From an uncultured Desulfuromonadales bacterium (lineage in GTDB: Bacteria > Desulfobacterota > Desulfuromonadia > Geobacterales > CAIOGM01), in contig CAIYUY010000152.1 of the NCBI GenBank assembly GCA_903929485.1, positions 15,756-79,755 on the forward strand: a stretch of 64,000 nt of DNA, read 5' to 3'. Each line of letters begins with the position of its first letter. The stretch's first letter is position 1. This document shows positions 1 to 19,361 of this stretch, piece after piece. The notes under the pieces were generated by a model. The model was not told the origin of the DNA, made no database searches, and worked only from the letters and a program-made list of their open reading frames with translations. Both the position numbers and the translations under genes were made by a program.

Positions 1-1
1 G

Positions 2-1216: not shown

Positions 1217-1250
1217 GGGTTTACGGTGATTCCGTGGACCCTTTTTTTGT
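1217..1250 (+). terminator. Rho-independent terminator after tRNA-Ala
   Basis: Imperfect hairpin GGGTTTACGG-TGATT-CCGTGGACCC followed by a T7 run. Confidence 0.6.
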
Positions 1251-1453
1251 TGTTTTTTCGTTCAAGTAACCTTACGGCACAAAAAACTTCGGAACCGGCT
1301 GCGTGGCACGACGAGCCGTCATACCGAAAGGTTTGACTAACTCTATATCTCACCTCAGTGAAACCATCCAAAACTGTCTGATTATTCTCCGTGTCTCTGT
1401 GGTGAACTGCTTTTCCGGTATTATTCGCGAAGTCGAAGGGGGGAGGATGAGCC

Positions 1454-4915: not shown

Positions 4916-5392
4916 GGCGCGAGCCTCCTCTTGGTAGTTTTTCTCCCTGGCACTCTTGTGTGGAAACATAATGGCTCACCGGGTTCCGGTCAAGGAAAAA
5001 AAGATCCCATTGGCAAATGGTAATATCCATGCTACGTCAAATAGCCGGTAATAATTTCTGTGTGTCGCGCTTTCGCGTATCGTTACAGAATTGTTACGTT
5101 TTGTGTACGGCTTCAATCAAATGTTTACTCATGGCGCGAGGCCTGCCGGGATATGAGCGCCTGGAAACTGTTGATATCCGGATGAATTTTCATGGCACGT
5201 GAATATAAATCAAGTAACTGGACAGGGATAGCCATGGTGCAAGTTTTGGGCGTATTTATTGCATGAGTGCGTTCGCTCCCCACCGTTGAGTGGGCGTGCT
5301 CAATGAGGCTGTTTCGTTTGTATTCGCGGATAGTCGCCGGTAATTGAACGTTTCCCAAAGGAGAAGAAAATGGTAAAAAAAGGAGAATATGT

Positions 5393-8300
5393 ATGTTGAG
5401 GAAAGTAGTGCTCTGGACTCTCTTGTCGCTCTTGCTCCCCACTCTATCCATGGCGGCGGTAACCCTTTACAAGGTTAAATATGTGGCTTCACCGGTAACG
5501 GGCGGTTCGGTTTCGGCTCCGGACACACGCAACCCGTATCCCACCTCCAGCGCGGCTGGCGCCCGATTCAGGGTAATGCCCAATTTTGGCCAAAAAATCC
5601 TCCTTGTTTCCCTTACCAACCCGGCCGATGGAGTCATCACGTATGATCCCAATTATGTCACCAACGGCTATTTCACGGTGGTCCCCACCAAGGATACGAC
5701 CCTGACAGTCACCTTTGGCGTCGCTCCCTCCGCGGTCTACGCCAACGCGGGTCCGGCCAAGAATCTCGTCGGATTGGGAAGCGGCAAGACGGTCTCCCTC
5801 GGGGGTACCGCCTCCAGCGTTCCCACCATTTCCGGTCTGCTCTTTGCGTACCAATGGACGGTTTCCGACTCCAACGGGCACTTTACCGCTCCCAACAGCG
5901 CGACCACCGGTTTCTATGCCGACGTTCCGGGCTCATATGTACCGGTATTGGTGGTCACGGCAGCCGGTAAAACCAGTGCTCCGTCCCAGACCGTGGTGGA
6001 CGTCGTCACCAACACCAACCTTGATTCCATCGCCTGTATTTCTTGCCACAATGCACGTTCCCCCCTGGTTGTCGCAGGGTACAAATCGTCCAAACATAAT
6101 ACCGGCAGCAACCCCACGGCGCCCAGTTGCCAGAGTTGCCACACCGTCGCCAATCCCACCGCCACTCACCCGGCAAACCTCGTCCCCTTTGCGACTCTGG
6201 GAAATGTCTGCCTCAACTGTCACAACGACGGCTTCGGCAATGTTCCGCTGCATCCGGTGGCCATCGGGGTGCGGCTCTGCATCTACTGCCATGATCCCCA
6301 CACGACAGCGGCCACTGACCCCGACATTCAGGGGACGGTCCACTTCAATAATGTTACCAGCGGTGCGTACCCCGCTTCCTACGTGACGTCCCGCGCCACC
6401 TGCTATGATTGCCATATTGATACGGCAGCCAACGCCACCATTCGCGGTCAGTGGGCCCGGACGGGGCACGCTAACGTGAAAAGCCCCGCCTGGACAACCT
6501 ACGACTTCAAGACCCGGGCCGGCTGCGTCCAGTGCCACACAACCACCGGCTTCATCGCTTACTCCACCGGAAAGGTCACCGGCGCCTGGGGCCTGGCCGC
6601 GGATAAGAGCAAGGAGATGGTTACCTGCGTCGCCTGCCACAATGACGTTCCCGCCGGCGCACTCAGGTCGGTTACTCCCATCAAGCCTTACGCCGATGAC
6701 AGTTACGTGAATCGTAACGTGGGCCCCTCCAACCTCTGCGTGGATTGCCACGGCGGCCGGAATAACGGCAAAAGCGTCAAGAGCGCCGACTTCACCAATC
6801 AGGCATTTGTTTCACCCCACTACATGGCCGCGGCCGGACTCCTTCATGGTCAGGGTGGCTACAACTTCCCCGGTTACTCCTTCTACTCCTCCAACAGCCA
6901 CCGGAAAGTCGGAATCGGCGCCACCATGGGGACCGGTATCGCCGGACCCTGCGTGGCATGTCACATGTCCGCCCCCGCCAAGCATCTCTACAGAGCGGTC
7001 TCCACCGATACCGGCGGCATCATAACAAGCATCGACACAACCCTCTGCGCCAACTGCCACAACAGCTCACTGTCCGTGGAGAGCCTGAAGGCAAATCAGG
7101 CGACATTCGATAACGCCCTCTCCGTCCTTACCGCGGCGCTCTCAGCCAAGGGTTTTGTCTATTCGTCCAATTATCCCTACTTCGTCAACACCAACTGGGG
7201 GGCCGGTACCGCCGGCGCCAACAGCATGGGGGCGGCGTTCAATTATGTCCTCCTCACCCATGAGCCGGCCGCCTACGCCCATAACCCGGCTTATGCCAAA
7301 CAGCTGGCAATGGACTCCATCGATGCAGCCTATCATGACGGGACACTCACCGGCTCCATCGATGATGTCCTCGCCGCACTGGTGGGAGAAGGGAAGATCT
7401 CCCAGGCCCAGGCCGACTCCCTTACCAGCTACAAGTCCGCCGGTAACTGCGCCTCATGTCACACCAACAACACGGGGAGCCATACCAAACATCTGAACTC
7501 CCTGATGGGCGCCAACGCCATCGGTTGTGTCGACTGCCACAAGAACACCGCGGCGTCCAATACGGCCCTGGTTCCGGGAACCACCAAGCATCTCAACGGC
7601 ATGGTGGATGTGATCTTCTCCGGCGCCGGTAGTTACGCCGCCGGGAGCTGCGGCGCCGTCTATTGCCACTCAAACGGCGCCGCAACCTACAGCTCTCCGG
7701 TCTGGGGCGGAAGCCCGCTGAACTGCGGCTCCTGCCATCCCCTGGCGTCACTGCGGGGAGCTCACGCCGCCCACATCGGCGGAGTCATCCCGGCCTACGG
7801 CGATACCGCCAACTCCTCCACCGCCGCGGAATATCGCTTCGGTTGCGGTAGCTGTCACCCCACCGACATTGCCGGTCATGGCAACGGTCATATCGACGTG
7901 ACCCTCGTGCCGACGAATGACGGCACGTTACGGAGCAAGAATGATCCCGCCGTTCTCATCGGCGGCATCGGCAACAGCGGCAGCGGCATCACCGGCGCCT
8001 CCGGCGCCACGGTTGTCTGCTCCGCTGCCTACTGCCACAGTAATGGTGGCGTCGGCGCCGCCCTGGTCTATGTCGCTTCTCCCAACTGGTACGGCGGTTC
8101 CTATTCCGGCGACAGATGCGCCATGTGTCATGGCAATGCTCCCGCCACCGGCGCCCACGGCAAGCACGGGGTCGGCATCCATTCAGGTCTCATCTCCGAC
8201 AGCGACGGGAATCTTATTCCGGCCGGCGCGGCCCCCGGCACGGTGTCCGGCCATGGTGACCCTGTTCAGTCCACCACCATCAGCTGCGGCACCTGCCACA

Positions 8301-8674
8301 GCGCCACGGTGACCAACAGCGCCAACGACAAGGGGGCTGCCTGCAGCTCCTGCCATACCGCCATTGCCAAGGGAACACCCGTTCTGGACAAGACCATGCA
8401 CCTTAACGGCACGGTGAATGTGGCGTTCAAGGATGTGAAGATCATCACCAAGGCCCAGATCGAACCGGCAAGCTTCGGCGTTTATTCCACCTGCTGGACC
8501 AGAACCGGTTCCTCCTACAAGGTCGGCGCCGGCTCATTTGATACCGCCCGGAGCAGCCTGAATCAGGCGACTTTCGCCGGGGATAAGAGCTGCGCCAATG
8601 TGGCCTGCCACAACGGCGGCACTCCCAAGTGGAGCGACAAGCTCCATTGCGTGAGCTGCCATTCGGCGCTCTGA
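5393..8674 (+). CDS. Secreted multihaem c-type cytochrome: 18 CxxCH plus 3 CxxxxCH motifs, with an N-terminal Ig/PKD-like region
   Basis: Signal peptide MLRKVVLWTLLSLLLPTLSMAAV. I counted the haem motifs by hand in the translation. The C-terminal third carries three CxxxxCH...CxxCH pairs (CGAVYCH/CGSCH, CSAAYCH/CAMCH, CANVACH/CVSCH), the pattern of the Geobacter C4xCH/C2xCH domain family. Confidence 0.9.
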   Translation: MLRKVVLWTLLSLLLPTLSMAAVTLYKVKYVASPVTGGSVSAPDTRNPYPTSSAAGARFRVMPNFGQKILLVSLTNPADGVITYDPNYVTNGYFTVVPTKDTTLTVTFGVAPSAVYANAGPAKNLVGLGSGKTVSLGGTASSVPTISGLLFAYQWTVSDSNGHFTAPNSATTGFYADVPGSYVPVLVVTAAGKTSAPSQTVVDVVTNTNLDSIACISCHNARSPLVVAGYKSSKHNTGSNPTAPSCQSCHTVANPTATHPANLVPFATLGNVCLNCHNDGFGNVPLHPVAIGVRLCIYCHDPHTTAATDPDIQGTVHFNNVTSGAYPASYVTSRATCYDCHIDTAANATIRGQWARTGHANVKSPAWTTYDFKTRAGCVQCHTTTGFIAYSTGKVTGAWGLAADKSKEMVTCVACHNDVPAGALRSVTPIKPYADDSYVNRNVGPSNLCVDCHGGRNNGKSVKSADFTNQAFVSPHYMAAAGLLHGQGGYNFPGYSFYSSNSHRKVGIGATMGTGIAGPCVACHMSAPAKHLYRAVSTDTGGIITSIDTTLCANCHNSSLSVESLKANQATFDNALSVLTAALSAKGFVYSSNYPYFVNTNWGAGTAGANSMGAAFNYVLLTHEPAAYAHNPAYAKQLAMDSIDAAYHDGTLTGSIDDVLAALVGEGKISQAQADSLTSYKSAGNCASCHTNNTGSHTKHLNSLMGANAIGCVDCHKNTAASNTALVPGTTKHLNGMVDVIFSGAGSYAAGSCGAVYCHSNGAATYSSPVWGGSPLNCGSCHPLASLRGAHAAHIGGVIPAYGDTANSSTAAEYRFGCGSCHPTDIAGHGNGHIDVTLVPTNDGTLRSKNDPAVLIGGIGNSGSGITGASGATVVCSAAYCHSNGGVGAALVYVASPNWYGGSYSGDRCAMCHGNAPATGAHGKHGVGIHSGLISDSDGNLIPAGAAPGTVSGHGDPVQSTTISCGTCHSATVTNSANDKGAACSSCHTAIAKGTPVLDKTMHLNGTVNVAFKDVKIITKAQIEPASFGVYSTCWTRTGSSYKVGAGSFDTARSSLNQATFAGDKSCANVACHNGGTPKWSDKLHCVSCHSAL

Positions 8675-8686
8675 TGACGTGAACCT

Positions 8687-8713
8687 GCCGGCCCGCGAAA
8701 AGAGCGGGCCGGC
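8687..8713 (+). other. Intercistronic GC-rich hairpin between the two cytochrome genes
   Basis: Perfect 10-bp stem GCCGGCCCGC/GCGGGCCGGC with a 7-nt loop GAAAAGA. No U-tract follows. Confidence 0.5.
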
Positions 8714-8767
8714 TTCACCGTAAACGTATCCCTAATTACTCAATACGACAAAAGAGGGTCGATCACC

Positions 8768-11700
8768 ATGGGCAAAGTCATTACGAAAAAAATCAGAGGA
8801 ATGGGATGGATGGCGAGGATCGGTCTGGTGCTCCTCTGCACCCTGCTGACCAGCGTCTTCATGCAGCAGGGATGGTACAAGCCGCTGGCCTCGGAAGCGG
8901 CAATCAGTGTCCAGCAGGCCTGGAGCACCGTCTATAACGGCACAGCCACTCCGGGAACGTACGCGTATCCCATCACCTCCGGTCCCAACAGGACCCTGGT
9001 CGTCGGAGTCTCCACCGTGGTCACCGCCACCACCGCCTCGCAGAGCTGCACCGTCACCTGGGGTGGGAAGCCGCTGGCGCTTGCCACGGGGAATGCCGCA
9101 ATCTCCGCCCAGCAGCACACCTACCTCTTTTACCTGGGTGAGGCGGATATCGCCGCGGCGTCGGGCTCGTCTCTCGTCATTGCCGTCACCGGCGGCACGG
9201 CAGCCTACAGTAACGTCTACGCCGGCGTCTATAACGGAGTGGACCAGGGTGCTCTCACGAAGATGGGGAGCTTTAACAACGGAACGACTACTACTTCCAC
9301 GATCGGTCCCCTTTCTCCCACGCTGACCCTCGCCACCGGCGACCTGGCGCTGGAACTTGTTAACCTGACTCGAACCGGCAGCGCCACCGCCCGGACGATC
9401 AGCAGCTGGGCCACCGGCTGGGCCGGCATTATTGCCAATACCGGCGCCAACAGCAGCAACTATGCCGTAAACACCAACATCGCCGGCAGCTCGACGGTGG
9501 GAACCACCTCCTCTTCTCATACGGCCAGCAGCTCCACGCTGGGCGCCATGTCAGCCCTGATCATCTCGCCGGTGGCCGGTGCGCCGGTCATAACCTCCGT
9601 CTCCCCCGTCTCCGTCAACATCGGCGATCCGGCCACCACCGTCACCATCACCGGCGCCGGTCTCACCGGTACCTCCTCCGTGACCTTCAGCGGGACCCTG
9701 GTTACCGCGGGGAGCCCCACTGTCGTCAGCGACACCCAGGTGACCGTGCCGGTAACCGCCGCAGCCGGAGCCGCCGCCGGCGACCGGACGGTGACGGTGA
9801 CCACACCGGTGGCGACCGGTTCCAAGCTGCTGACCGGTTTCGCCGTCAGCAACTTGCCGGCCCCCACCGTCACCGGCATCTCCACTCCCATCCTCGGTCA
9901 GGGAGGGAGCGCCCAGAACGTCACCATCACCGGCGCCAACTTCGTTAGCGGCGCCGGTCTCGCCTCAACCTTCGGCGCCGGCGTCACCGTGAACTCCACG
10001 AGCTATGTCAGTGCGACTCAACTCACCGCCAACATCACGGTGACGACTTCGGCCACCGTCGGATTGCATGACGTGGTCGTCACCAATCCCGATACCAAGT
10101 CCGGCGCCGGCACGGGTCTCCTCACGGTGAACGCCCGGGCCACTGTTCTCCTGACCTCCCCGTTCTCCGGTCTCCAGGGAGTAACGAACCAAGTCGTGAC
10201 GCTCTTCGGCACCGGCTTTTATCCCGGCGCGGGCTTGGCGGCTGTTTTCAGTGGCGCCGGTATTACCGTCAACTCAATAAGTTATGTGGATATGAATCAC
10301 CTCGGCGCCAACATTTCGCTGAGCGCAACGGCAGCCACCGGCGCCCGTACCATCACCGTCACTAATGGCGATACCGGGATCTCCGCTGCCGGTGGTTCTT
10401 ATACGGTGCTTGCTTCTACCGGCGCCGTCTCGATTTCTTCCCTCACTCCCTATGCAGTCGGTCAGGGGGTCAGTAACGCAAATGTTCAAATCTATGGCGC
10501 CGGTTTTGATCCTGCCGCCACCGTCACCTTCAGCAGCAGCAGAGTAACACTCAACTCCACCACCTTTATCGACTCCACGCACCTTACCGCCAACATTACA
10601 ACCAGCACCTCTTCCGCTCAGAGCTCCAACGTCACGGTGACCAATCCTGCCAGTGCCGGAAGCGGGACGTTTACCGCCACCGCCGGCTTCTACATCAACA
10701 GCCGTCCGACAATCACCTCGGTGACCCCCACCACCGGGCTCGCAGGTAACGCCTATGACCTGACCTTCGTGGGGACCGGCTTTCAGGCCGGGGCCGTAGT
10801 AGCCATCACCGGATCGGGGGTAACGATCAGCAACGTGAACGTGACCAGCGCCACCAGCATGACGGCCCATATGGTCATCGGCGCCACCCCCACCTACGGG
10901 CTTCAGACCCTCACCATCACCAACCCCGATCTTGGGTACAACACCATCTCCTTCAACGTGGCCAGCCTGACCTCGCCGGCAATCACCTCCATTTCCCCCA
11001 ACGTCATTGGTCAGGGGGCCACCGGGGTGAATGTCACCATCAACGGCGCCAACTTCGTCAGCGGCGCCACGGTGCTCTTCGGCGCCACCGGTAATACCAA
11101 CTTCACCACCAACTCGGTGACCTTCATCAGCTCCACCCAGCTGATCGCCAATCTTACTGTCGGGACAGGAGCGACGGTGGGGACCAACAACACCACTGTC
11201 ACCGTGACCAATCCCAACAGTGAAGCCGGTCTTGCCTCGCTTCTCAGCATCACTGCCCGTCCGGGGACGACGACGTTTACACCCACCATCGGGACGTTGG
11301 GAACCACCTTCGACATCGCCATCGTCAGCACTACTTTGGCGGCCGGCCCCGGCTTCGGCGTCACCGTCAGCGGCGCCGGTGTGACGGTGAACAGCTTCGC
11401 CTTACTCAGCGCCACGTCGGCCACCGCCAACGTGACCATCGACGCCGGCTATCTTGTGGCTCCCCTGGGAAGCCGGGTCATCACTCTCTCCAATGGCGAC
11501 TACGGCGCCAGGACCGGCACCCTGACCGTGCGCGGGCTTGTCCCCACGGTCATCGCCGCGACTCCCGCCATTCGCCAGGGGGCTGTCAACCAGAACGTGA
11601 CGATCACCGGGACTAACTTCTACCCCGGCGCCGTCGCCACCTTCAGTAACGCCGGTGTTACCGTCAACTCCACCACCTTCGTCGATCCCGCGACGGTAAC

Positions 11701-14341
11701 AGCCAACATCTCCGTGGACGGCGCCGCCGTCATCGGTAGCAGCAACATCACCGTCACCAACGCCGATACCCAGGCCGCAACGGGGACCGGAATCTTTACG
11801 GTGTCCGCCGCGCCTACCGTCACCTCCAACTCCCCTCTGACCGGTGGCCGGGGGGCGACCCTGGATGTTACCATCAACGGCGCCGGCTTCGTTTCCGGCG
11901 CCTCGGTTGTCTTCAGCGGCACGGGCATCACGGTGAACTCCGTCAGCGGCAGCGGTTCCAGCCTCACGGCAAACATCACCATCGCAGCAGACGCACTCCT
12001 GACTACCCGGAGTATCACGGTAACCAACCTGGACGGCAGCAACGCAGCCGGCGGCGCTTTCACGGTCCTCCTGCCGGTCGCCACCACCACTGCTCCCCTT
12101 ACCTTCGGTCAGGTCACCGAAACGAGTATCACGGTTTTGGCGCCCTACACCAATGACAGCAACGGTAACAATGCCTGCACCATCCTCTGGGGTACCGCTC
12201 CAGGGTCCTATACCAACAGCGCCGCTGCCGTGCGGCAGTCGGGATACTTTACGGCAACTCTCACCGGTCTCACCGGCGGGGTTGATGGAGAAGGTAAGGC
12301 TTACTATTTCCAGGTAACTTTCAGCGATGCCGACGGCGTCATCGGCGCAAACCCGGTTGCCGGGGTGCAATCCACCAAGGCCCGGCTGTTGATGCATAAC
12401 AGTGAAAACCTTAATTCAGGTAAATGGTCACAGGGGTGGGGTGTCACCGGCGGCAAGTACGGTGTGTTCACCTGCTCCACCTGCCACAGCGAGAACACCA
12501 CCAACAGCAAGATGATTGCCGGTTCCATCCAGACCCCCTCCCTGGAAAACTGGAGCTCCTCGGGGAGCAGCACGGTCGCTCCCGTTGTTTTCACCAAGGT
12601 CATGGGGGTCGATGCTCCCCACGCCACCTCCGATAAGGTTTGCGAAGTTTGTCACAGTCGCACGAGCCACCATCTCTACAACAACCCCGCTGCCAACCAT
12701 GAGGGGACCAAGGCCTGCACCGACTGCCATAGCCACAAACAGGGCTTTCTCACAAATTGCATCGATTGCCACTCTACCCCCCAGGGTAACCGTCGTCAGG
12801 TCGTGGGGAATGGTGGAGACTTCTTCTCCAACATGACCACCCATGTGAAGAGCTCCAGCATCAGCTCGCTCTCCTGCATGGCCTGCCACGACACCAATGG
12901 TCACAGATCCTTCGGCGATGGCGTCAGCGTCAAGCTGCGGAACGCCAACGGCGGCGCCTCCGTCGTGTACGACGGCACCTCCGCCACCGCCTCGGCAGTG
13001 AAGGACACCTGTATCTCCTGTCATGACGCCAACGGCGCTTCCGCCTACGGCGCTAACGCCCGGTCGCCCTTCGCCCCCTCCGGCGACACCAAGGCGCCCG
13101 CCGATATCAGCCAGTACTGGCCGGCAACGGGGGGAGCTCATAATGTCAACATGGTCTGCTTCAACTGCCATGGCAATTCAAAGGGGGTTGACGGGAGTAC
13201 CGTCAATCCGAAATATAACGGCCATGCTTCGGGAACCAAGCATATTCTCCAGGATCAGGCCTACGACGTGGTGAATCCCAATAACTACTGCTTCAATTGT
13301 CACAATGCGGCTTCCACCAATCCGAACAAGTCGTCAAAAAACATTGCCGGACAGATGGCTCTGGCTTCCAGGCATACCACCGCCAAATGCTTCGACTGCC
13401 ATGGCGCCGAGAGCAATAGCGTCAACAGCATGCATTCCCTGCGCGCCGGTTCACAGGTGAACTCTACAACCATCGCCAACAATATTTCCAATGCCGACGG
13501 CAGGAGCATGACTTGGTCCGGGACCAAGTGGGGTGGCGCTTCAGCTTCCACTCCTCTGACTTCGGGGACGGTAACCGCGGAATATCAGATCTGTATTAAA
13601 TGTCATGCCGCAACCGGCTCCGGCACGACCCCCGACGTTCCCGGGGTCGGTACCGCCGCCGCATCCCTCACCAATCTGGCTCTGGAGTTCAATCCCAACA
13701 ACGCTTCGGGCCACCCGGTCGTCACGGGACTGAACAATTACCGCAACTCCGTCGCCCCCAAGGCGCTGGCCGCAGCCACCATGAAGGCCCCCTGGAATGT
13801 GAACCTGGGGACCCAGGTCATGAGCTGCACTGACTGCCACGCCACCGACAGCGCCGGGGCCAAGGGGCCCCACGGCTCCTCCGTGAAATGGATGCTGGCC
13901 GGCGCCAACAAGGCATGGCCCTACACCACTGCCGCCGCCAACGGCACCAGCAGCGGCACCTTCTTCCGGATCGCTACCTACAATACCGGTGACGGTACGG
14001 CAAACGGCCTCTTCTGCCTCAATTGCCACACGATCAATGCCTCCAACAACTGGCATGCGAACTCCAATCTCGCAACCAGCGGCGGCGAACATACCTCCAG
14101 TACAACCGGTCCTCCGGTTTGCGTCAACTGTCATATCAGGGTCCCCCACGGCGGCAAGATCGCCCGTCTCCTCCAGACGACCAATGCTCCCGGGCGTTAT
14201 CAGGCCGGTGGTATTGCCGGTACGCCGCTCTTCACCCAGTGGGGCCCCACCACGGGAACCATCAAAGGGACGACCATGAGCAGCAGCAACTTCAACAGCT
14301 CATGCAATGAGCACAGCGGTACCGGCGGAGAAGCCTGGTAA
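8768..14341 (+). CDS. Giant surface protein: signal/anchor, unknown about 230-aa domain, nine IPT/TIG-like Ig repeats, one FN3-like domain and a C-terminal 13-haem c-type cytochrome domain
   Basis: 1857 aa. AGAGGG RBS upstream. Hydrophobic N-terminus ARIGLVLLCTLLTSVF. The repeats have the consensus P.IT..SP....QG.....VTI.G..F..GA...FSG.GVTVNS......T.LTANI........G...ITVTN.D. I counted 13 CxxCH motifs between about 12468 and 14130. Confidence 0.85.
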   Translation: MGKVITKKIRGMGWMARIGLVLLCTLLTSVFMQQGWYKPLASEAAISVQQAWSTVYNGTATPGTYAYPITSGPNRTLVVGVSTVVTATTASQSCTVTWGGKPLALATGNAAISAQQHTYLFYLGEADIAAASGSSLVIAVTGGTAAYSNVYAGVYNGVDQGALTKMGSFNNGTTTTSTIGPLSPTLTLATGDLALELVNLTRTGSATARTISSWATGWAGIIANTGANSSNYAVNTNIAGSSTVGTTSSSHTASSSTLGAMSALIISPVAGAPVITSVSPVSVNIGDPATTVTITGAGLTGTSSVTFSGTLVTAGSPTVVSDTQVTVPVTAAAGAAAGDRTVTVTTPVATGSKLLTGFAVSNLPAPTVTGISTPILGQGGSAQNVTITGANFVSGAGLASTFGAGVTVNSTSYVSATQLTANITVTTSATVGLHDVVVTNPDTKSGAGTGLLTVNARATVLLTSPFSGLQGVTNQVVTLFGTGFYPGAGLAAVFSGAGITVNSISYVDMNHLGANISLSATAATGARTITVTNGDTGISAAGGSYTVLASTGAVSISSLTPYAVGQGVSNANVQIYGAGFDPAATVTFSSSRVTLNSTTFIDSTHLTANITTSTSSAQSSNVTVTNPASAGSGTFTATAGFYINSRPTITSVTPTTGLAGNAYDLTFVGTGFQAGAVVAITGSGVTISNVNVTSATSMTAHMVIGATPTYGLQTLTITNPDLGYNTISFNVASLTSPAITSISPNVIGQGATGVNVTINGANFVSGATVLFGATGNTNFTTNSVTFISSTQLIANLTVGTGATVGTNNTTVTVTNPNSEAGLASLLSITARPGTTTFTPTIGTLGTTFDIAIVSTTLAAGPGFGVTVSGAGVTVNSFALLSATSATANVTIDAGYLVAPLGSRVITLSNGDYGARTGTLTVRGLVPTVIAATPAIRQGAVNQNVTITGTNFYPGAVATFSNAGVTVNSTTFVDPATVTANISVDGAAVIGSSNITVTNADTQAATGTGIFTVSAAPTVTSNSPLTGGRGATLDVTINGAGFVSGASVVFSGTGITVNSVSGSGSSLTANITIAADALLTTRSITVTNLDGSNAAGGAFTVLLPVATTTAPLTFGQVTETSITVLAPYTNDSNGNNACTILWGTAPGSYTNSAAAVRQSGYFTATLTGLTGGVDGEGKAYYFQVTFSDADGVIGANPVAGVQSTKARLLMHNSENLNSGKWSQGWGVTGGKYGVFTCSTCHSENTTNSKMIAGSIQTPSLENWSSSGSSTVAPVVFTKVMGVDAPHATSDKVCEVCHSRTSHHLYNNPAANHEGTKACTDCHSHKQGFLTNCIDCHSTPQGNRRQVVGNGGDFFSNMTTHVKSSSISSLSCMACHDTNGHRSFGDGVSVKLRNANGGASVVYDGTSATASAVKDTCISCHDANGASAYGANARSPFAPSGDTKAPADISQYWPATGGAHNVNMVCFNCHGNSKGVDGSTVNPKYNGHASGTKHILQDQAYDVVNPNNYCFNCHNAASTNPNKSSKNIAGQMALASRHTTAKCFDCHGAESNSVNSMHSLRAGSQVNSTTIANNISNADGRSMTWSGTKWGGASASTPLTSGTVTAEYQICIKCHAATGSGTTPDVPGVGTAAASLTNLALEFNPNNASGHPVVTGLNNYRNSVAPKALAAATMKAPWNVNLGTQVMSCTDCHATDSAGAKGPHGSSVKWMLAGANKAWPYTTAAANGTSSGTFFRIATYNTGDGTANGLFCLNCHTINASNNWHANSNLATSGGEHTSSTTGPPVCVNCHIRVPHGGKIARLLQTTNAPGRYQAGGIAGTPLFTQWGPTTGTIKGTTMSSSNFNSSCNEHSGTGGEAW
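9581..12072 (+). repeat. Nine tandem, diverged Ig-like (IPT/TIG-type) domain repeats of about 92 aa, inside CDS 8768..14341
   Basis: I delimited the repeat boundaries by hand from the recurring P(A/T)(I/V)T..(S/T)P ... TVTN.D pattern. Divergence at the amino-acid level argues against recent duplication or an assembly artefact. Confidence 0.8.
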
Positions 14342-14447: not shown

Positions 14448-14483
14448 ATGAACAAAACGGAAATCAAAGCCGGAGCGCGAACC

Positions 14484-15026
14484 ATGCGTAAAACTACCCT
14501 GATCATCTTTCTTTTCACCACCGCTCTGTTTGCCGGCTGTAAAGAGGCTCCACCGGGCAAGGGGGGGGCAGTACAACCCCAACGTACATCCGGTGGCGCC
14601 GTCACCGAGATCGTCCACCGAAGGATTGCCCGCTATAATCAACTTCTCAGCGAGGGGTACAAGAGTATCAACATGACCTCGCTGCAGGAGGTGACGACTC
14701 CGGAGTTGGCGGAAAAAGCCTATTATCATATGGCGGCCATCGGCGAGGGGAACAGCCGGATGGTGTCGGAGTTGAAAAAACTCGATTTCGTGGAGACTCT
14801 CTGCTCTAGTGCCATCACCTGTCGGGTTGTCACCAGGGAGCTGTGGGATTACTCCTATGAAGAGATCAAGAGCGGCAAGAAGGTCTACGAGGTGAAGGAT
14901 TACCTCTATGATGTGCGGTATCTGCTGGAGAGCCGGCAGGGAAGGTGGGTCATAACGGAGATCACCGCCACCGGCGAAGATCGCAAGGAGGTCCCCTCAT
15001 GGAAAGAGCTACTCAAAAAAAGGTAA
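14484..15026 (+). CDS. Putative lipoprotein, unknown function
   Basis: I chose the start MRKTTLIIFLFTTALFAGC because the longer ORF would begin inside the terminator T-run. The lipobox is LFAGC. I recognised no family. Confidence 0.55.
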   Translation: MRKTTLIIFLFTTALFAGCKEAPPGKGGAVQPQRTSGGAVTEIVHRRIARYNQLLSEGYKSINMTSLQEVTTPELAEKAYYHMAAIGEGNSRMVSELKKLDFVETLCSSAITCRVVTRELWDYSYEEIKSGKKVYEVKDYLYDVRYLLESRQGRWVITEITATGEDRKEVPSWKELLKKR

Positions 15027-15066: not shown

Positions 15067-15864
15067 ATGCCTGAGCTGACCGTCCGCCGCTGTTGCGCCA
15101 TCTTCGCCATCGTTGCTTTTTTTGCTGTTGTCGTCATCGCCGCTCTCCACCGTCTGGGGAGTGAGAGCAGGGTGGTGGGGAAGAGCGGATTGATAGGCTC
15201 GCCGGACATTGTCAAATTAATGGCTGATGATCCTTCGGAGGCGTACCGGATCTGGAAGGAGTTCGGCTACCGGGGCCGAATAATCGTTTATCTGGCGGAT
15301 CGATGGGAAACGTGTAATCCCGATGAAATGATACCGGCGCCATTGGCTCGACCGTACCCCCTGTCTCTGGTGAATCCGGCACGGTTTCTTGAGGAGAACA
15401 ACCTGAACGGCGCTACGTTTCTCTATATCGCTTCCTTGAATAGGATTACCCGGAAGATCGTGGCGCTTCTCCCCCCCGGGGAGATCAGCAGGATGGTGGG
15501 AGCGACCAAGAGAGGGAAGGATTTTCAGATTACATCCAGCGGTATTGATGATTCCCGGCAAGGTTTTCCGCGACGATTCACCACTGTCGACCATTTTGCC
15601 GGCAGTGGAGAGCCCGTGCTTCTCTACGTGGGGGCATCCTGTCTTCGCGCGGTGGAGCCCGAGGAACTTTACCGTCTCTTGATCAAATCCGGAGTTACTA
15701 CTGACTGCGTCATCCTTTGTCGGGAAAAAGGGAAAGATTCGGTGTCTCCGGTTGAAGTAGCCAAACTCCACCGCTTTGCTCGGCTCATGGGCTTGAGAAC
15801 CCTTTCGGGAAGCCGGGGCGCCACCCGGTACGTAGCTCCCATGGCCGCGGTACCGGCATCATGA
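15067..15864 (+). CDS. Hypothetical protein with a single N-terminal transmembrane anchor
   Basis: 265 aa. GAGGGAAG RBS upstream. Hydrophobic segment CCAIFAIVAFFAVVVIAAL. The stop overlaps the next start (ATGA). I recognised no family. Confidence 0.5.
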   Translation: MPELTVRRCCAIFAIVAFFAVVVIAALHRLGSESRVVGKSGLIGSPDIVKLMADDPSEAYRIWKEFGYRGRIIVYLADRWETCNPDEMIPAPLARPYPLSLVNPARFLEENNLNGATFLYIASLNRITRKIVALLPPGEISRMVGATKRGKDFQITSSGIDDSRQGFPRRFTTVDHFAGSGEPVLLYVGASCLRAVEPEELYRLLIKSGVTTDCVILCREKGKDSVSPVEVAKLHRFARLMGLRTLSGSRGATRYVAPMAAVPAS

Positions 15865-17189
15865 AAATTGTTACCTTTCCCCACTGGAAGCCCCGGCTGC
15901 CGGCGGGAGTCACACTGCTATCTCTGATTCTGAACGGCATCCTCCTGTCACGGCAGCCGGTTTCCCTGGATGATTTTCACGTGGCGCTCTCCGCCATCAA
16001 TTTTACGGAATCCGGACAGCTGGGCCCGACCATGTGGAATCATCCGGTGTTGCGTAACCTCCTGGTCTACGGGACCATGAAGCTGTTCGGCACCGGAGTC
16101 CTCGGTGTGAAAGGGGTGTCTCTTCTCCTGGGAACCCTCTGCACTCCCCTGGTGGCCCTGGTGGCCCGGCGGATCTTTCGAGATGAGCGGATCGCCCTCA
16201 CCGCGGCTCTTCTCTGGGCTGTTGACCCCCTGGTCATCGATTTCTCCCGCCAGGGTATCAACGATATCTATCTGGCCTTCTTCCCCTTGCTTGGCATCTA
16301 TCTGGCCTATCGTTTTCGAGAAACAGCCAACTCGGCGTGGCTGTTGGTTTCGGGGATAGCCTTCGGTCTGGGGTTGGCTTCCAAGTGGAGCGCCCTGTTC
16401 CCTTTGACGGCGACCTTTGTTCTGATCATCGTCACCATCGCTGGGGGAGCGGGGGGGATGCGGGAGAGGTTGGCTCGTTATTGTCATGTGACGGCCCTCC
16501 TCCTGGTGATTCCGGCCTTGGTTTATCTGCTGACTTTTGTCCCCTGGTTTGCCCGGGGGTACACTCCGGCGGAGTGGCCGGCGCTCCAGCGGAGCATGTT
16601 TCTGGAGACCTCTCAACATGCGGGGTACAAGCCCAAACTGTGGGACGACCGGGACAACCGGGCCTGGAAGTGGTTCGTCGTCCCGTCGCTGTTCGTCGAC
16701 CCTTTCATGAATCTGGACCACATTTGGGGAGATGAAGAGGTGGTAGTGACTCCGGAGAAGAACGTAACGGTGGTCCTGGGGGTCGCAAATCCCCTGGTCT
16801 GGCTGCTGACGCTCCCGGCGATTTTTTTCCTGCTCCGCCGAGGAATTCGCCAGCGGGATGAAGGGAGAGTGTATCTGGTTGCGTTGTTTTGCTGCTCTTA
16901 TCTCCCCCTGATTCTGTCGCCGCGCCCCATCTGGTTGAATACCGCCCTTTCGGTTCTTCCTTATGCTATCATGGCTGTCGGGGGTCTGATTTGGACTCTG
17001 GCTGACCGTCTCCAGCGACCGGGGCGCGGTGTTGCACTTTATCTGCTCCTGGTTCTCCTCGTTGCTTCGCCGCTGTATCCGTTGGCCATCGGCAAGGGGA
17101 TGAGAATACCTTTTTTCAGGGAGTACCTGGCAAGTCGCTATCTCGTGCAGTTCAAAGAGAAGATGCCTCATACGCCGTCACAGCCATGA
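15861..17189 (+). CDS. GT39/PMT-like (GT-C fold) phospholipid-carrier-dependent glycosyltransferase
   Basis: 442 aa and polytopic. An acidic pair (SLDDF) sits in the first loop. The layout HP.LRNLL.YG..KLFG ... ARRIF ... DP..IDFSRQGINDIYL resembles bacterial protein O-mannosyltransferase/ArnT-type enzymes. Confidence 0.6.
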   Translation: MKIVTFPHWKPRLPAGVTLLSLILNGILLSRQPVSLDDFHVALSAINFTESGQLGPTMWNHPVLRNLLVYGTMKLFGTGVLGVKGVSLLLGTLCTPLVALVARRIFRDERIALTAALLWAVDPLVIDFSRQGINDIYLAFFPLLGIYLAYRFRETANSAWLLVSGIAFGLGLASKWSALFPLTATFVLIIVTIAGGAGGMRERLARYCHVTALLLVIPALVYLLTFVPWFARGYTPAEWPALQRSMFLETSQHAGYKPKLWDDRDNRAWKWFVVPSLFVDPFMNLDHIWGDEEVVVTPEKNVTVVLGVANPLVWLLTLPAIFFLLRRGIRQRDEGRVYLVALFCCSYLPLILSPRPIWLNTALSVLPYAIMAVGGLIWTLADRLQRPGRGVALYLLLVLLVASPLYPLAIGKGMRIPFFREYLASRYLVQFKEKMPHTPSQP

Positions 17190-17208
17190 CGTTATCCGGA
17201 CTACATTC

Positions 17209-18525
17209 GTGAAACCAGCCAAATTCCTTACCGCACGCTCCACCGTCATGACGCTGTTGATTGCCGTCAGTTCGGCGCTCCTCCTTACCTGTTTTCTGCC
17301 GCAACGGAGCTCCGGTGACGGAAATATTCCCCCGTGGGTCGGTCGACTGCCGGAGCAGTTCCATTTTCTCTCCTCACTGCTTGGCCTGGACAACATTGTT
17401 GGCGCCGGCTGGTTTGCATTTTTGGTCGGGCTCTTTTCATGTTCACTCATCTTCTCCACCTTGGCCCAGTACAAAACCGCCATGTCTCAGGCCCGGCGAC
17501 TTCCCTCGGGGTCCATACCGGACGAGAGTATCCGCCTCAAACTGTCGCCCTCGCTTCTTGCCCAACGTTTACAGACGGCGGGATACCGCTTGGCCGGCAG
17601 CGGGGAGGGCGTAGAGAGGTATGTGAAAAACCGCTGGGGTTACTGGGGAAATTTTCTGATTCACCTGGGATTGGTCACCGTGGTTCTCTTCTCCCTGGTT
17701 TATATCGTGACCCGGCATCGGGTGTTGCTGCGGCTTACCGGGGGTGAGATGACGTTGCTCACCCCCGGTAATTTTGTCGAAATGAAGGGGGTCATGCCGC
17801 TTCAGCGCCGCCTTCCCGCCGGCATCTCCTTGATCCGGTTGGAACCCCGTTTCTGGAAAAACGATAAACTGGAATTTCTGAGTTCCGAACTTTCATTCAC
17901 CGACCGTCCCGGTAGTCAGCCTCGGCGGGTGGATGTTGCCCTCTGTGACAAGTCCCAGTACGGTCCCTTTATCGTCTACCAGATGAATGCCTACGGTCGC
18001 GCTTTTGATCTCTTGTTCGAATCACCGCGGGGAGAGAGACATGGACAGCGTTTTTTTCTGCCGTATCCTCCCAGTCACATGAAGGCCGGCTATGGCGATA
18101 CGGCGCTGGAAGGGACCGATCTCCTTCTCAAGGGAAAGTTCTACACCGATTCAAAACGCCAATCCATGAAGCTCAACTCTCCACCTCTTTATCTGCGTCT
18201 TCAGCGAGGACAGGAACTCCTGGGGGAGGTAACTCTTCAGCCGGGTGCCGCCAAGGTGTTGGGTCCTCTCAAGGTCACGTTGACCCGTTCTTCCTGGTGG
18301 ACTGATATCCTCCTGGAAGGGAGTCGCGGCACGACCGGTATTTTTGCCGGCTTTGCCGTCATTCTGGCGGGGGTGCTTATCTCCTACTGTCTTGTCCCCC
18401 GAGAGATCATTGTCAGGGAATCCGGCGGAACGCTTCATCTCCAGCAGGTGGCGCGGCGTTTCGCCCTGTTTTACCGTGAAGAGTTTGCAGATATCATACA
18501 GGCACGACAATCAGGAGAATCATGA
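17209..18525 (+). CDS. resB: Cytochrome c biogenesis protein ResB/Ccs1 (System II)
   Basis: 438 aa with a GTG start. The topology and the WGYWGNFLIHLGLVTVVLF segment are typical of ResB. The stop overlaps the ccsA start. Confidence 0.7.
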   Translation: MKPAKFLTARSTVMTLLIAVSSALLLTCFLPQRSSGDGNIPPWVGRLPEQFHFLSSLLGLDNIVGAGWFAFLVGLFSCSLIFSTLAQYKTAMSQARRLPSGSIPDESIRLKLSPSLLAQRLQTAGYRLAGSGEGVERYVKNRWGYWGNFLIHLGLVTVVLFSLVYIVTRHRVLLRLTGGEMTLLTPGNFVEMKGVMPLQRRLPAGISLIRLEPRFWKNDKLEFLSSELSFTDRPGSQPRRVDVALCDKSQYGPFIVYQMNAYGRAFDLLFESPRGERHGQRFFLPYPPSHMKAGYGDTALEGTDLLLKGKFYTDSKRQSMKLNSPPLYLRLQRGQELLGEVTLQPGAAKVLGPLKVTLTRSSWWTDILLEGSRGTTGIFAGFAVILAGVLISYCLVPREIIVRESGGTLHLQQVARRFALFYREEFADIIQARQSGES

Positions 18526-19352: not shown

Positions 19353-19361
19353 GTTATTCCT

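What the first reader, a model, noticed from the sequence alone, without database searches (positions are those of the whole stretch)
8768..14341. 1857-aa fusion of an Ig-domain stalk (9 IPT/TIG-like repeats plus an FN3-like domain) to a 13-haem cytochrome head
The architecture read from the translation is:
- an N-terminal hydrophobic signal/anchor;
- an unrecognised Ser/Thr/Gly-rich domain of about 230 aa;
- nine diverged Ig-like repeats of about 92 aa (9581..12072);
- one FN3-like module (about 12073..12380);
- a domain of about 650 aa with 13 CxxCH motifs.
A rigid string of roughly ten Ig-fold beads could hold the haem domain well away from the anchoring end. That geometry suits contact with insoluble acceptors or partner cells. 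The orientation (which end is cell-proximal) is unknown.
Basis: partly seen in the sequence, partly recalled or inferred. Interest (0 to 1): 0.85.

Follow-up and report, generated by a model that had tools for sequence, protein, structure and literature searches.

The report
Stalked 13-haem surface cytochrome of Geobacteraceae
This gene is intact and conserved, and encodes a very long secreted protein: an unknown beta-domain, nine Ig-like beads and one FN3 bead, ending in a 13-haem electron-transfer module.

Summary
ORF 8768..14341 (+) encodes 1857 aa:
- a 44-aa leader;
- a 227-aa all-beta domain ("N-dom");
- nine Ig-like repeats (aa 272-1102);
- one FN3 domain (aa 1103-1204);
- a 653-aa C-terminal module with 13 CxxCH motifs.

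It is not a mis-join. The identical protein occurs on 21 independent contigs. Colinear orthologues (47-74% identity) keep all 13 motifs.

- The N-terminal hydrophobic stretch is most likely a cleaved signal peptide, not an anchor.
- The "unrecognised" domain is a recurrent N-terminal module of surface proteins (159 clusters). It has no relative among solved structures.
- In nine relatives the N-dom sits at the opposite end from a C-terminal T9SS sorting domain. This suggests the N-dom is the distal tip and the haem module the cell-proximal base.
- The head also occurs alone, sometimes with a lipobox. Its nearest solved relative is OmcA/MtrC, and the match is weak.

A conserved operon accompanies the gene: a 21-haem partner cytochrome, ResB/CcsA, a PMT-type glycosyltransferase and a radical-SAM enzyme. 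Cytochrome fusions to Ig or FN3 domains are already reported elsewhere.

Verdict: a real, uncharacterised, new variant of a known kind. Interest 0.6.

The parts
8768..14341 (+). Whole gene: 1857-aa secreted multidomain c-type cytochrome (stop codon 14339-14341).
   Evidence: ORF listing. The identical protein is on 21 contigs. Colinear orthologues exist.
8768..8899 (+). Leader, aa 1-44: MGKVITKKIRGMGWMARIGLVLLCTLLTSVFMQQGWYKPLASEA. It has a long basic n-region, a 15-aa hydrophobic core and a long c-region. The predicted signal-peptidase I site is A44|A45.
   Evidence: Read from the sequence. A44 is invariant. Relatives with canonical signal peptides end at the same alignment position. The GW[YFLQW] leader motif is present in 18/29 cytochrome-type N-dom proteins against 5/111 non-cytochrome ones. 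Cleavage is inferred, not shown.
8900..9580 (+). N-dom, aa 45-271: an all-beta domain of unknown function. R75 and H117 are invariant; W52, Y122, D159 and Q160 (the GVDQ motif) are nearly invariant.
   Evidence: 159 representative clusters at E<=1e-3. AF2 pLDDT 94.3. No convincing PDB fold match, TM<=0.28. No PDB hit by sequence profile. No Pfam or NCBIfam hit. Conservation from alignment A2.
9581..12073 (+). Stalk: nine tandem Ig-like (IPT/TIG, 'choice-of-anchor Z') repeats. Boundaries are aa 272-364, 365-457, 458-552, 553-645, 646-735, 736-830, 831-924, 925-1014 and 1015-1102. Linkers are very short and only 4.2% of residues are charged.
   Evidence: Pfam TIG and NCBIfam NF058597. Self-profile searches. 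Identity matrix and composition. Orthologues carry 9 or 7 copies, and other head-bearing relatives 2-3.
12074..12379 (+). FN3-fold domain, aa 1103-1204, with invariant Cys1137.
   Evidence: AF2 gives mostly pLDDT about 90 for this part. Foldseek matches are almost all FN3 domains. The Pfam fn3 HMM does not hit. Cys1137 is invariant.
12380..14338 (+). Head, aa 1205-1857: 13 CxxCH motifs plus 17 further invariant His, enough for bis-His ligation of every haem.
   Evidence: Motif positions. Invariance in 12 orthologues and near-invariance in 42 family members. Pfam MtrC/MtrF II-IV domain at 1413-1556 (40.5 bits, cutoff 30) and Cytochrome_C7 at 1285-1336. A profile against the PDB gives OmcA 4LMH at E 1.5e-9. 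The AF2 model of this part is unreliable, pLDDT about 50.
14303..14338 (+). Conserved C-terminal tail C-N-E-H-SGTGG-E-A-W-COOH (aa 1846-1857). The terminal Trp is invariant.
   Evidence: H1849, G1853, E1855, W1857. 70 of 120 head-family hits end in W, against 2 of 97 non-cytochrome TIG proteins ending in any aromatic residue. Its role is unknown.
5393..8674 (+). Co-encoded partner cytochrome: 1093 aa with an ordinary signal peptide, 18 CxxCH plus 3 CxxxxCH (21 haem motifs) and a weak PKD-like N-terminal domain.
   Evidence: A large CxxxxCH-type cytochrome sits immediately upstream in three orthologous loci.
8687..8713 (+). Perfect 10-bp GC-rich hairpin (GCCGGCCCGC-gaaaaga-GCGGGCCGGC) between the two cytochrome genes. 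It has no T-tract.
   Evidence: Sequence. It is not called as an intrinsic terminator. The two genes are probably co-transcribed (inference).
14448..15026 (+). Small protein with a lipobox (LFAGC) and no family hit. It is a conserved neighbour.
   Evidence: Counterparts of 138-205 aa in orthologous loci.
15067..15864 (+). 265-aa protein with an N-terminal transmembrane helix and no family hit. It is a conserved neighbour.
   Evidence: Counterparts of 249-264 aa in orthologous loci.
15861..17189 (+). PMT/PMT_2 (GT-C) glycosyltransferase, 442 aa.
   Evidence: Pfam PMT 66.5 bits and PMT_2 65.9 bits. Present in all three orthologous loci examined.
17209..19352 (+). Dedicated system II cytochrome c maturation pair: ResB-like (17209-18525) and CcsA/CcsB (18522-19352).
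   Evidence: Pfam ResB and Cytochrom_C_asm. TIGR03144 at 143.7 bits, below its cutoff of 187.6. Conserved in orthologous loci.
19362..20408 (+). Radical SAM enzyme, 348 aa, function unassigned.
   Evidence: Pfam Radical_SAM. Only sub-threshold NCBIfam matches. It recurs next to CcsA in orthologous loci and in a locus encoding a paralogous head.

Best explanation
The gene encodes a secreted, cell-surface or extracellular c-type cytochrome built like an adhesin.

Proposed steps:
1. After Sec export the 44-aa leader is cut at A44|A45.
2. Haems are attached in the periplasm. The dedicated ResB/CcsA pair more probably serves the partner's three CxxxxCH sites.
3. The Ser/Thr-rich protein may be O-glycosylated by the co-encoded PMT-type transferase.
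4. The mature protein is a rod of roughly 45-55 nm. From N to C it reads: N-dom tip, nine Ig-like beads, one FN3 bead, 13-haem module.

The 13-haem module is an electron-transfer unit rather than an enzyme, because it has enough invariant His for bis-His ligation of every haem. It is the conserved end of the protein. It exchanges electrons with the co-encoded 21-haem cytochrome and with the cell's outer-surface conduit, so it sits at the cell-proximal base.

The non-conducting stalk projects the N-dom outwards. The N-dom is a binding module of unknown ligand, and it attaches the cell at the site of electron exit to a mineral, a polymer or a partner cell.

Shown: the architecture, its conservation, the operon, the FN3 and N-dom folds, and the module distribution.
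Inferred: cleavage, export across the outer membrane, glycosylation, orientation, binding function and redox partners.
For: Architecture and integrity.

Secreted rather than anchored: relatives carry canonical signal peptides that end at the same position as ASEA|AISVQQAW.

Extracellular:
- The stalk repeat family occurs with T9SS tails, SLH domains and a subtilase.
- The N-dom occurs with Pfam-verified T9SS sorting domains (34.0 and 29.8 bits against a cutoff of 27).
- It also occurs with Ig-like, cadherin-like and Listeria-Bacteroides repeats.

N-dom distal, C-terminus proximal:
- In 125 of 140 complete N-dom representatives the N-dom starts within the first 100 residues. Nine have T9SS-type C-terminal tails.
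- The N-terminal module is swappable: Geomonas Red276 P0012 and P0037 carry different N-terminal domains. The head stays constant.
- Stalk length varies (2, 3, 7 or 9 repeats) with the same 13-haem head.
- Some stand-alone head homologues have lipoboxes, as expected for membrane-surface cytochromes (P0128, P0129, P0137).

Electron-transfer role:
- 13 invariant CxxCH plus 17 invariant extra His.
- An MtrC/OmcA-type pentahaem domain hit.

Functional unit: the operon of partner cytochrome, ResB/CcsA, PMT glycosyltransferase and radical SAM is conserved.
Against: - No experiment or structure fixes the orientation. The argument from T9SS relatives is positional analogy.
- The haem module has no known anchoring signal, and no porin or outer-membrane conduit gene is in the cluster.
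- No porin was seen next to three head homologues either.
- If the N-dom binds the substrate at the far end of a stiff 40-nm stalk, the bound surface would sit far from the haems.
- The very conserved leader is atypical for a plain Sec signal and could mean retention or special processing.
- The head model is low confidence, so haem ligation and a possible open catalytic site are unresolved.
- The route across the outer membrane is unknown.
Confidence: 0.42

Rival explanations
1. One reading: the N-terminal end is the attached end. Attachment would be through a retained leader or through the N-dom binding the cell envelope or exopolysaccharide. The rod then holds the 13-haem head tens of nanometres out, or tethers it in the biofilm matrix. 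There it would trade electrons with minerals, nanowires, neighbouring tethered cytochromes or partner cells by collision (bounded diffusion).
For: - The N-dom is the constant N-terminal module of many proteins with variable C-terminal parts, including cytochrome modules with 8-31 CxxCH. That pattern fits 'common handle, variable payload'.
- The leader is unusually conserved.
- The weak fold resemblances of the N-dom are to jelly-roll or lectin-like domains such as galectin, laminin G and CBM22.
- A Wzx/Wzy-type exopolysaccharide cluster lies 10 kb downstream in this genome.
- Precedent for flexible tethering of haem domains: PgcA (PMC5732950).
Against: - Relatives with canonical cleaved signal peptides share the same mature N-terminus.
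- T9SS-type relatives place the N-dom opposite the anchor.
- The fold matches are not significant (TM<=0.28).
- The exopolysaccharide cluster is not adjacent in the orthologous loci examined.
- An insulating stalk leaves the head without a direct electron path.
Confidence: 0.3
2. The head is a catalytic multihaem enzyme, for example a reductase of a soluble or colloidal substrate, displayed on a stalk. It would not be a pure electron relay.
For: - Weak, below-cutoff matches to NrfB and NrfA-type proteins.
- A conserved Cys-x-x-His tail could provide an unusual ligand.
- Precedent for a pentahaem plus Ig-like domain enzyme: MccSep (PMC13510729).
Against: - The 17 invariant extra His suffice for bis-His ligation of all 13 haems.
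- There is no CxxCK or other catalytic motif.
- The matches to enzymes fall below their cutoffs.
- MccSep is periplasmic and unrelated in sequence.
Confidence: 0.1
3. The protein is a periplasmic or inner-membrane-anchored protein that never leaves the cell. The leader would act as an uncleaved signal anchor and the rod would lie in, or span, the periplasm.
For: - The hydrophobic core of the leader is conserved and the c-region is unusually long.
- No outer-membrane export or anchoring signal was recognised.
Against: - The repeat and N-dom families are typical of surface proteins.
- Ten Ig-fold beads plus two end domains exceed the width of the periplasm (inference).
- An AxA-type cleavage site is conserved.
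Confidence: 0.06
4. The long ORF is an assembly chimera or frameshift artefact.
For: None found.
Against: - The identical protein is on 21 independently assembled contigs.
- Orthologues are colinear over 100% of the length.
- There is no DNA-level repeat that could cause a mis-join.
Confidence: 0.01

Closest known systems
OmcA/MtrC/MtrF outer-surface decahaem cytochromes (Pfam PF22113; PDB 4LMH)
   Same: - Both are multihaem c-type electron-transfer proteins of metal reducers that combine haem domains with beta-domains.
- One MtrC-type pentahaem domain scores above the Pfam cutoff (40.5 against 30).
- OmcA is the best hit of the profile search against the PDB (E 1.5e-9).
   Different: - 13 haems, not 10.
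- No lipobox.
- The family model TIGR03507 does not hit this protein.
- The match covers only part of the head.
- This protein adds a stalk and tip of about 1200 aa that OmcA/MtrC lack.
IPT/TIG (PF01833) and NCBIfam NF058597 'choice-of-anchor Z' repeat surface proteins
   Same: The nine stalk repeats are bona fide members. Relatives use the same repeats in proteins with T9SS tails, SLH domains, a protease or other heads.
   Different: In those proteins the C-terminus is a sorting or anchoring signal or an enzyme. Here it is a 13-haem cytochrome.
Other reported cytochrome fusions to Ig or FN3 domains: OetF of ANME-partner sulfate reducers (PMC10553843), and MtoA-like cytochromes of Dethiobacter with large C-terminal Ig-like domains (PMC10376724). 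From my own knowledge, not checked here: S-layer-domain multihaem cytochromes of ANME archaea.
   Same: They share the concept of an extracellular multihaem cytochrome fused to adhesin-type beta-sandwich domains. The proposed roles are matrix or partner contact.
   Different: - No sequence relationship was tested or is claimed.
- The domain order differs (here the Ig domains are N-terminal to the haems).
- Here there is a ten-bead stalk and a distinct N-terminal tip domain.
- None of those proteins is functionally dissected either.
PgcA of Geobacter sulfurreducens (PMC5732950)
   Same: Both are extracellular Geobacter cytochromes in which non-haem repeat segments space or tether the haem domains. 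PgcA aids reduction of Fe(III) oxides.
   Different: PgcA is small (three haems) and its spacers are flexible Pro-Thr repeats. Here the spacers are folded Ig beads.
MccSep (GSU2937-2936) pentahaem selenoenzyme with an Ig-like stem (PMC13510729)
   Same: A Geobacter multihaem cytochrome joined to an Ig-like beta-sandwich.
   Different: MccSep is periplasmic and tetrameric, has one Ig-like domain at the C-terminus, and has a His/Cys plus selenocysteine active site. None of these features is seen here.

Membership tests
Multihaem c-type cytochrome (general) | Several CxxCH haem-attachment motifs with matching distal ligands, conserved among homologues. | tested here: met
   13 CxxCH, all invariant in 12 orthologues, plus 17 invariant extra His. 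10 of the 13 motifs have both Cys and His conserved in all 42 family members aligned.
Multihaem c-type cytochrome (general) | Covalent haem actually attached. | not testable with these tools
   Needs haem staining or mass spectrometry. A dedicated ResB/CcsA pair is co-encoded.
IPT/TIG (PF01833) / CoaZ repeat (NF058597) | Score above the curated cutoff of the family model. | tested here: met
   TIG 59.1 bits against 20.9, 6 stretches. NF058597 222.5 bits against 30, 8 stretches. Nine copies by self-profile.
IPT/TIG (PF01833) / CoaZ repeat (NF058597) | Ig-like beta-sandwich fold of each repeat. | not tested
The fold is inferred from family membership.
Fibronectin type III domain | Match to the Pfam fn3 sequence model. 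| tested here: not met
   No fn3 hit at E<=0.1.
Fibronectin type III domain | FN3 fold. | tested here: met
   AF2 gives mostly pLDDT about 90 for aa 1100-1204. In Foldseek nearly all of the best 50 matches, including the top two, are FN3 domains (probability 1.00, TM up to 0.72 normalised to the target).
OmcA/MtrC decahaem family | MtrC-type pentahaem domain (PF22113). | tested here: met
   40.5 bits against a cutoff of 30, best stretch aa 1413-1556. OmcA 4LMH at E 1.5e-9 by profile.
OmcA/MtrC decahaem family | Ten haems in two pentahaem domains, and a match to the family model TIGR03507. | tested here: not met
   13 motifs. TIGR03507 is not among the hits for this protein.
OmcA/MtrC decahaem family | N-terminal lipoprotein signal (lipobox Cys). 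| tested here: not met
   The leader reads VLLC24TLL, with Leu at -1 and no lipobox. A conserved AxA-type site lies 20 residues later.
Cytochrome nanowire subunits (OmcS, OmcE, OmcZ) | Sequence relationship to the solved filament subunits. | tested here: not met
   No such chain appears among PDB hits at E<=1, with the single sequence or with the family profile. That these filament structures are in the PDB copy searched is my own knowledge, not checked here.
Cytochrome nanowire subunits (OmcS, OmcE, OmcZ) | Head-to-tail polymerisation with inter-subunit haem stacking. | not testable with these tools
   Needs microscopy. The head model is unreliable.
Type IV pilin-like (class III signal peptide) modular pilins | Short basic leader ending in Gly, then a hydrophobic helix with Glu at +5. 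| tested here: not met
   A ...KIRG|MGWMAR... site would give Ala at +5 and Arg at +6. Lys or Arg at this spot is conserved in orthologues. Considered and rejected.
Surface proteins with C-terminal sorting signals (T9SS CTD, SLH, PEP-CTERM, LPXTG) | A recognisable C-terminal sorting or anchor domain. | tested here: not met
   No such Pfam or NCBIfam hit. The C-terminus is the haem module, ending ...GGEAW.
N-dom family (unnamed) | Significant full-length similarity to the domain of about 230 aa that follows the signal peptide in many surface proteins. | tested here: met
   159 clusters at E<=1e-3, 120 at E<=1e-10. In 125 of 140 complete representatives it starts within the first 100 residues.

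The most novel reading that the evidence does not exclude
Geobacteraceae may have a dedicated class of giant extracellular cytochromes defined by three features:
1. A conserved 45-aa leader.
2. A conserved aromatic C-terminal end (...GGEAW or ...PGG[ST]Y). Together with the leader it would act as a sorting or docking signal for an unrecognised export or attachment route.
3. A previously unseen N-terminal beta-domain that binds exopolysaccharide, mineral or partner-cell surfaces.

Such proteins would be the missing physical link that positions cytochromes outside the cell in conductive biofilms and on minerals. Stalk length (2-9 Ig beads) would set the working distance.
Probability: 0.15. Interest if true: 0.8.

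Novelty: new variant of a known kind. Interest (0 to 1): 0.6.

Why it matters
How metal-reducing bacteria place and hold their cytochromes outside the cell is still poorly understood. So is how they couple adhesion to electron transfer. This family offers a concrete, conserved object to test.

It has a cultured carrier (Geomesophilobacter sediminis Red875). It has a clear modular design: tip, a stalk of adjustable length, and a haem base. It also has a compact accessory operon with a partner cytochrome, a dedicated haem lyase, a glycosyltransferase and a radical SAM enzyme.

The work also brings out a widespread domain of unknown fold class (159 clusters across lineages, including T9SS-bearing ones). 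It further points to two possible sorting signals, the leader and the C-terminal Trp. If the orientation proposed here holds, the protein links an adhesin directly to an electron exit site. Either result would inform models of extracellular electron transfer.

Tried and rejected
- PDB sequence search with the whole protein: only a chance-level hit.
- PDB profile search with the N-dom alignment: nothing.
- Foldseek of the N-dom model: only weak jelly-roll resemblances (TM<=0.28, rmsd about 19 A). I do not treat these as homology.
- AlphaFold2 of the haem head: pLDDT about 50, unusable. The Foldseek hits for that model come almost entirely from its FN3 part.
- Tandem Repeats Finder: no DNA-level repeat.
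- Thioester-adhesin idea for the N-dom (the 'QQAW' motif plus Cys94): rejected. Neither the Cys nor the Gln is conserved across the family, and the fold is all-beta.
- Prepilin-type leader: rejected, no Glu at +5.
- Search for a porin or outer-membrane conduit gene in the cluster, and next to three head homologues: none found.
- Literature searches for this architecture: no paper on the family, only analogous fusions.
- The genome scan did not recover the window's own genome, so the organism can only be placed among uncultured Geobacteraceae/Desulfuromonadales. The cluster look-up gave no names.
- The upstream cytochrome is not a paralogue of the head by BLASTP.
- Not used: the third homologue search and the third fold search, because no pending question justified the cost.
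Full report
**1. The observation**

The window holds one uninterrupted ORF at 8768..14341 on the + strand. It has an ATG start and encodes 1857 aa. An AGAGGG ribosome-binding site precedes it.

The translation carries exactly 13 CxxCH motifs, all between aa 1236 and 1785. Only four Cys lie outside these motifs.

Pfam recognises IPT/TIG repeats (59.1 bits, cutoff 20.9, six stretches). In the C-terminal part it recognises an MtrC/MtrF-type pentahaem domain (40.5 bits, cutoff 30, aa 1413-1556) and a cytochrome c7-like segment. NCBIfam recognises the repeats much more strongly, as NF058597 'choice-of-anchor Z repeating domain' (222.5 bits, cutoff 30, eight stretches).

A profile built from the protein's own repeats finds nine contiguous copies at aa 272-1102. 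They are 24-53% identical, mean 37%. There is no repeat at the DNA level.

**2. The ORF is real**

The identical 1857-aa protein is encoded on 21 contigs from separate ENA, NCBI and Logan assemblies. Full-length colinear orthologues of 47-74% identity exist. A 12-sequence alignment keeps every one of the 13 CxxCH motifs and 17 further His in the head.

A scan of species-representative genomes finds full-length relatives only in Geobacteraceae and Desulfuromonadales metagenome-assembled genomes, Geomesophilobacter sediminis Red875 and a Geomonas strain. It also finds partial, head-only matches in Geobacter sp. and in a few Actinomycetota and Coriobacteriaceae genomes. The window's own genome is not among the representatives, so the source is an uncultured member of this group. 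Available annotations read only 'IPT/TIG domain-containing protein' or 'hypothetical protein'.

**3. The N-terminal end**

The first 44 residues have a long basic n-region, a 15-residue hydrophobic core and a long c-region ending ASEA|A. This leader is unusually conserved among orthologues: MGKVIxKKIxGMSWxAKVSLVLxCTLLTSVFMYQGWYKP.

An exhaustive search with aa 40-272 found 159 protein clusters (120 at E<=1e-10) that hold the same domain of about 230 aa. In 125 of 140 complete representatives it starts within the first 100 residues.

In the many non-cytochrome members an ordinary signal peptide ends with AxA. The mature chain then starts AI(S/T)xxQAW, exactly as here. I therefore read the hydrophobic stretch as a cleaved signal peptide, not an anchor. 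This is an inference.

The domain ('N-dom') is predicted with high confidence as all-beta (pLDDT 94.3, pTM 0.92). It has no convincing match among solved structures:
- by fold, TM<=0.28, with only weak jelly-roll or lectin-like resemblances;
- by sequence profile, nothing;
- in Pfam and NCBIfam, no hit.

R75 and H117 are invariant. W52, Y122 and the GVDQ motif (D159, Q160) are nearly invariant. That suggests a defined binding or active site of unknown specificity.

**4. Stalk and FN3**

The nine repeats follow one another with almost no linker. They are extremely poor in charged residues (4.2%) and rich in Thr, Ser, Gly, Ala and Val.

Orthologues carry nine or seven copies. Other proteins with the same 13-haem head carry two or three. 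Stalk length is therefore an evolutionary variable while the head is constant.

The segment aa 1103-1204 does not hit the Pfam fn3 model. It is predicted mostly at pLDDT about 90 as a beta-sandwich. In Foldseek against the PDB nearly all of the best 50 matches, including the top two, are FN3 domains (probability 1.00, TM up to 0.72 normalised to the target).

From general knowledge of Ig-fold dimensions (about 4 nm per bead), ten beads give roughly 35-45 nm. This is an estimate, not a measurement.

**5. The head**

A search with aa 1205-1857 alone shows that the head is a module in its own right:
- It occurs as stand-alone 13-haem proteins of about 680-770 aa (P0130, P0134 which carries two extra CxxCH, P0144).
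- It forms the C-terminal part of cytochromes of about 950-1100 aa with 11-20 haems.
- It sits behind other N-terminal architectures (P0037, P0059, P0076).

Some stand-alone relatives have lipoboxes (P0128, P0129, P0137).

Its C-terminal half is shared with cytochromes of about 700 aa. Where a source names them, they come from Persephonella and other Aquificota, Campylobacterota and Geothrix.

By sequence profile the nearest solved relative is the Shewanella surface decahaem OmcA (4LMH, E 1.5e-9). Generic c7-type and photosynthetic reaction-centre cytochromes follow. No nanowire subunit appears.

AlphaFold2 cannot model the head without haems (pLDDT about 50). Haem ligation and chain geometry therefore remain open. 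The 17 invariant extra His are enough for bis-His ligation of all 13 haems. That fits a relay better than an enzyme.

The family has a conserved tail, C-x-x-H-x(3-6)-G-E-x-W-COOH. Of 120 head-family hits, 70 end in Trp. Of 97 non-cytochrome TIG proteins, 2 end in any aromatic residue.

**6. Context**

Immediately upstream (5393..8674) lies a 1093-aa cytochrome with an ordinary signal peptide and 18 CxxCH plus 3 CxxxxCH motifs. A 10-bp GC hairpin without a T-tract lies between the two genes, so co-transcription is likely.

Downstream follow:
- a lipobox protein;
- a protein with a single transmembrane helix;
- a PMT/PMT_2 (GT-C) glycosyltransferase;
- ResB and CcsA;
- a radical SAM enzyme.

The same gene set, in slightly different order, surrounds the orthologues in Geomesophilobacter, Geomonas Red276 and a metagenomic contig. 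The one exception is that no radical SAM gene appears within the part of the Red276 locus held here. A CcsA plus radical SAM pair also follows a paralogous head-bearing cytochrome in Geotalea uraniireducens.

From established knowledge, and from memory rather than a check here, dedicated CcsBA isoforms serve non-standard haem motifs in Wolinella. On that basis the local ResB/CcsA pair most plausibly matures the partner's CxxxxCH sites. The PMT-type enzyme may O-glycosylate these Ser/Thr-rich proteins. Both statements are inferences.

No porin-like or other cytochrome gene is in the 64-kb window.

**7. Which end faces the cell?**

My evidence leans the other way.

- The leader is probably removed (section 3).
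- Nine representatives of the N-dom family end in a T9SS-type C-terminal tail; two were verified against Pfam (34.0 and 29.8 bits, cutoff 27). One more has a borderline SLH domain. From general knowledge, T9SS cargo is attached to the cell surface through its C-terminal end, so in those proteins the N-dom would be the far end.
- In the cytochrome-type members the C-terminal position is taken by the haem module.
- Within this family the N-terminal module is the part that gets swapped (P0012, P0037), while the head is constant. That is the usual pattern for the tip and base of an adhesin.
- Folded Ig beads do not conduct. A head held 40 nm out would need some other electron supply.

I therefore favour the haem module as the cell-proximal base and the N-dom as the distal binding tip.

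The reverse orientation is a serious rival at about 0.3. It would be an N-dom bound to the envelope or matrix with the head tethered outside. From the N-dom's point of view the C-terminal parts are the variable payload. The leader is oddly conserved. This genome also has an exopolysaccharide cluster 10 kb downstream, although that linkage is not seen in the orthologous loci.

**8. Comparison with what is known**

The protein works like other extracellular multihaem cytochromes of metal reducers, and it contains an MtrC-type pentahaem unit. It fails the membership tests of the OmcA/MtrC family: 13 haems rather than 10, no lipobox and no TIGR03507 hit.

Fusions of multihaem cytochromes to FN3 or Ig-like domains have been noted before:
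- OetF in sulfate reducers that partner with ANME archaea (PMC10553843);
- MtoA-like proteins of Dethiobacter (PMC10376724);
- a pentahaem enzyme with an Ig-like stem, MccSep (PMC13510729).

Spacer-tethered haem domains are known from PgcA (PMC5732950). I found no paper on this family or this architecture.

**9. Verdict**

The feature is real, conserved and uncharacterised. It is a new variant of a known kind, namely extracellular multihaem cytochromes with adhesin-type domains.

Three aspects are new:
- the ten-bead stalk of variable length;
- the widespread N-terminal domain with no solved relative;
- the pair of conserved terminal signatures (the leader and the C-terminal Trp), together with a compact accessory operon.

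Its anchor-and-head geometry is unproven and, on balance, probably inverted. Interest 0.6.

Noticed in passing
window 8768-8899 (aa 1-44), and orthologues P0002-P0012: The leader MGKVIxKKIxGMSWxAKVSLVLxCTLLTSVFMYQGWYKP is unusually conserved. Its GW[YFLQW] motif is in 18/29 cytochrome-type but only 5/111 non-cytochrome N-dom proteins. It also heads cytochromes that lack the N-dom (P0122, P0125, P0012). It may be a special targeting or processing signal.
   Followed up: partly
window 14303-14338 (aa 1846-1857): The head family has a conserved C-terminal tail, C-x-x-H...G-E-x-W-COOH. Related cytochrome-type N-dom proteins end in ...PGG[ST]Y. 22/29 of those cytochrome-type proteins end in an aromatic residue, against 7/111 non-cytochrome N-dom proteins. 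Its role is unknown.
   Followed up: partly
window 8900-9580 (N-dom): This domain of about 230 aa occurs in 159 protein clusters and has no Pfam, NCBIfam or PDB relative. It occurs with T9SS tails, Ig-like, cadherin-like and Listeria-Bacteroides repeats, and up to three times in one protein (P0241).
   Followed up: partly
window 5393-8674: The partner cytochrome has 18 CxxCH plus 3 CxxxxCH motifs and a weak PKD-like N-terminal domain. A large cytochrome of this type sits directly upstream in all three orthologous loci examined. It is not a paralogue of the head.
   Followed up: partly
window 8687-8713: A perfect 10-bp GC-rich hairpin with a 7-nt loop lies 13 nt after the partner gene's stop codon. 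It has no T-tract. It could be an intercistronic RNA-stability or processing element.
   Followed up: no
window 15861-20408: A PMT-type GT-C glycosyltransferase, ResB, CcsA and a radical SAM enzyme travel with the two cytochromes. Orthologous loci add a B12-binding radical SAM enzyme and a second PMT/TPR protein (L003, L004). This hints at dedicated post-translational maturation.
   Followed up: partly
window 24369-45862 (and probably to about 49000): A Wzx/Wzy-type exopolysaccharide cluster. It contains a very large Wza-like exporter with five SLBB domains (1048 aa), a Wzz/GNVR protein, a flippase, a pyruvyl transferase, an FrhB-like Fe-S protein, several glycosyltransferases, a Wzy-type polymerase and a priming sugar transferase.
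   Followed up: partly
window 6001-14000: GC content rises to 0.60-0.64 and GC skew falls to between -0.12 and -0.19 across the two cytochrome genes. The likely cause is their Thr/Ala/Gly/Ser-rich coding (ACC and GCC codons) rather than foreign origin.
   Followed up: no
P0012 (Geomonas sp. Red276, locus L005); P0013, P0041, P0046: Module swapping within the family. P0012 keeps the leader, seven repeats, FN3 and the head but has a different N-terminal domain. P0013, P0041 and P0046 keep the N-dom, stalk repeats and FN3 but carry a divergent 13-haem head that ends ...CGCNGTGGM or ...CACNSTSTH.
   Followed up: partly
L021 (Geotalea uraniireducens AP027151.1): Three large CxxxxCH-type cytochromes in a row, the last carrying the C-terminal part of the head. 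An NHL/Big-repeat protein precedes them and CcsA plus a radical SAM enzyme follow. This is a related cluster design.
   Followed up: no
window 1-4408: 2-oxoacid:ferredoxin oxidoreductase subunits and a 984-aa NAD-glutamate dehydrogenase lie upstream of the cluster. A zinc-ribbon protein lies on the minus strand at 4415-4969.
   Followed up: no
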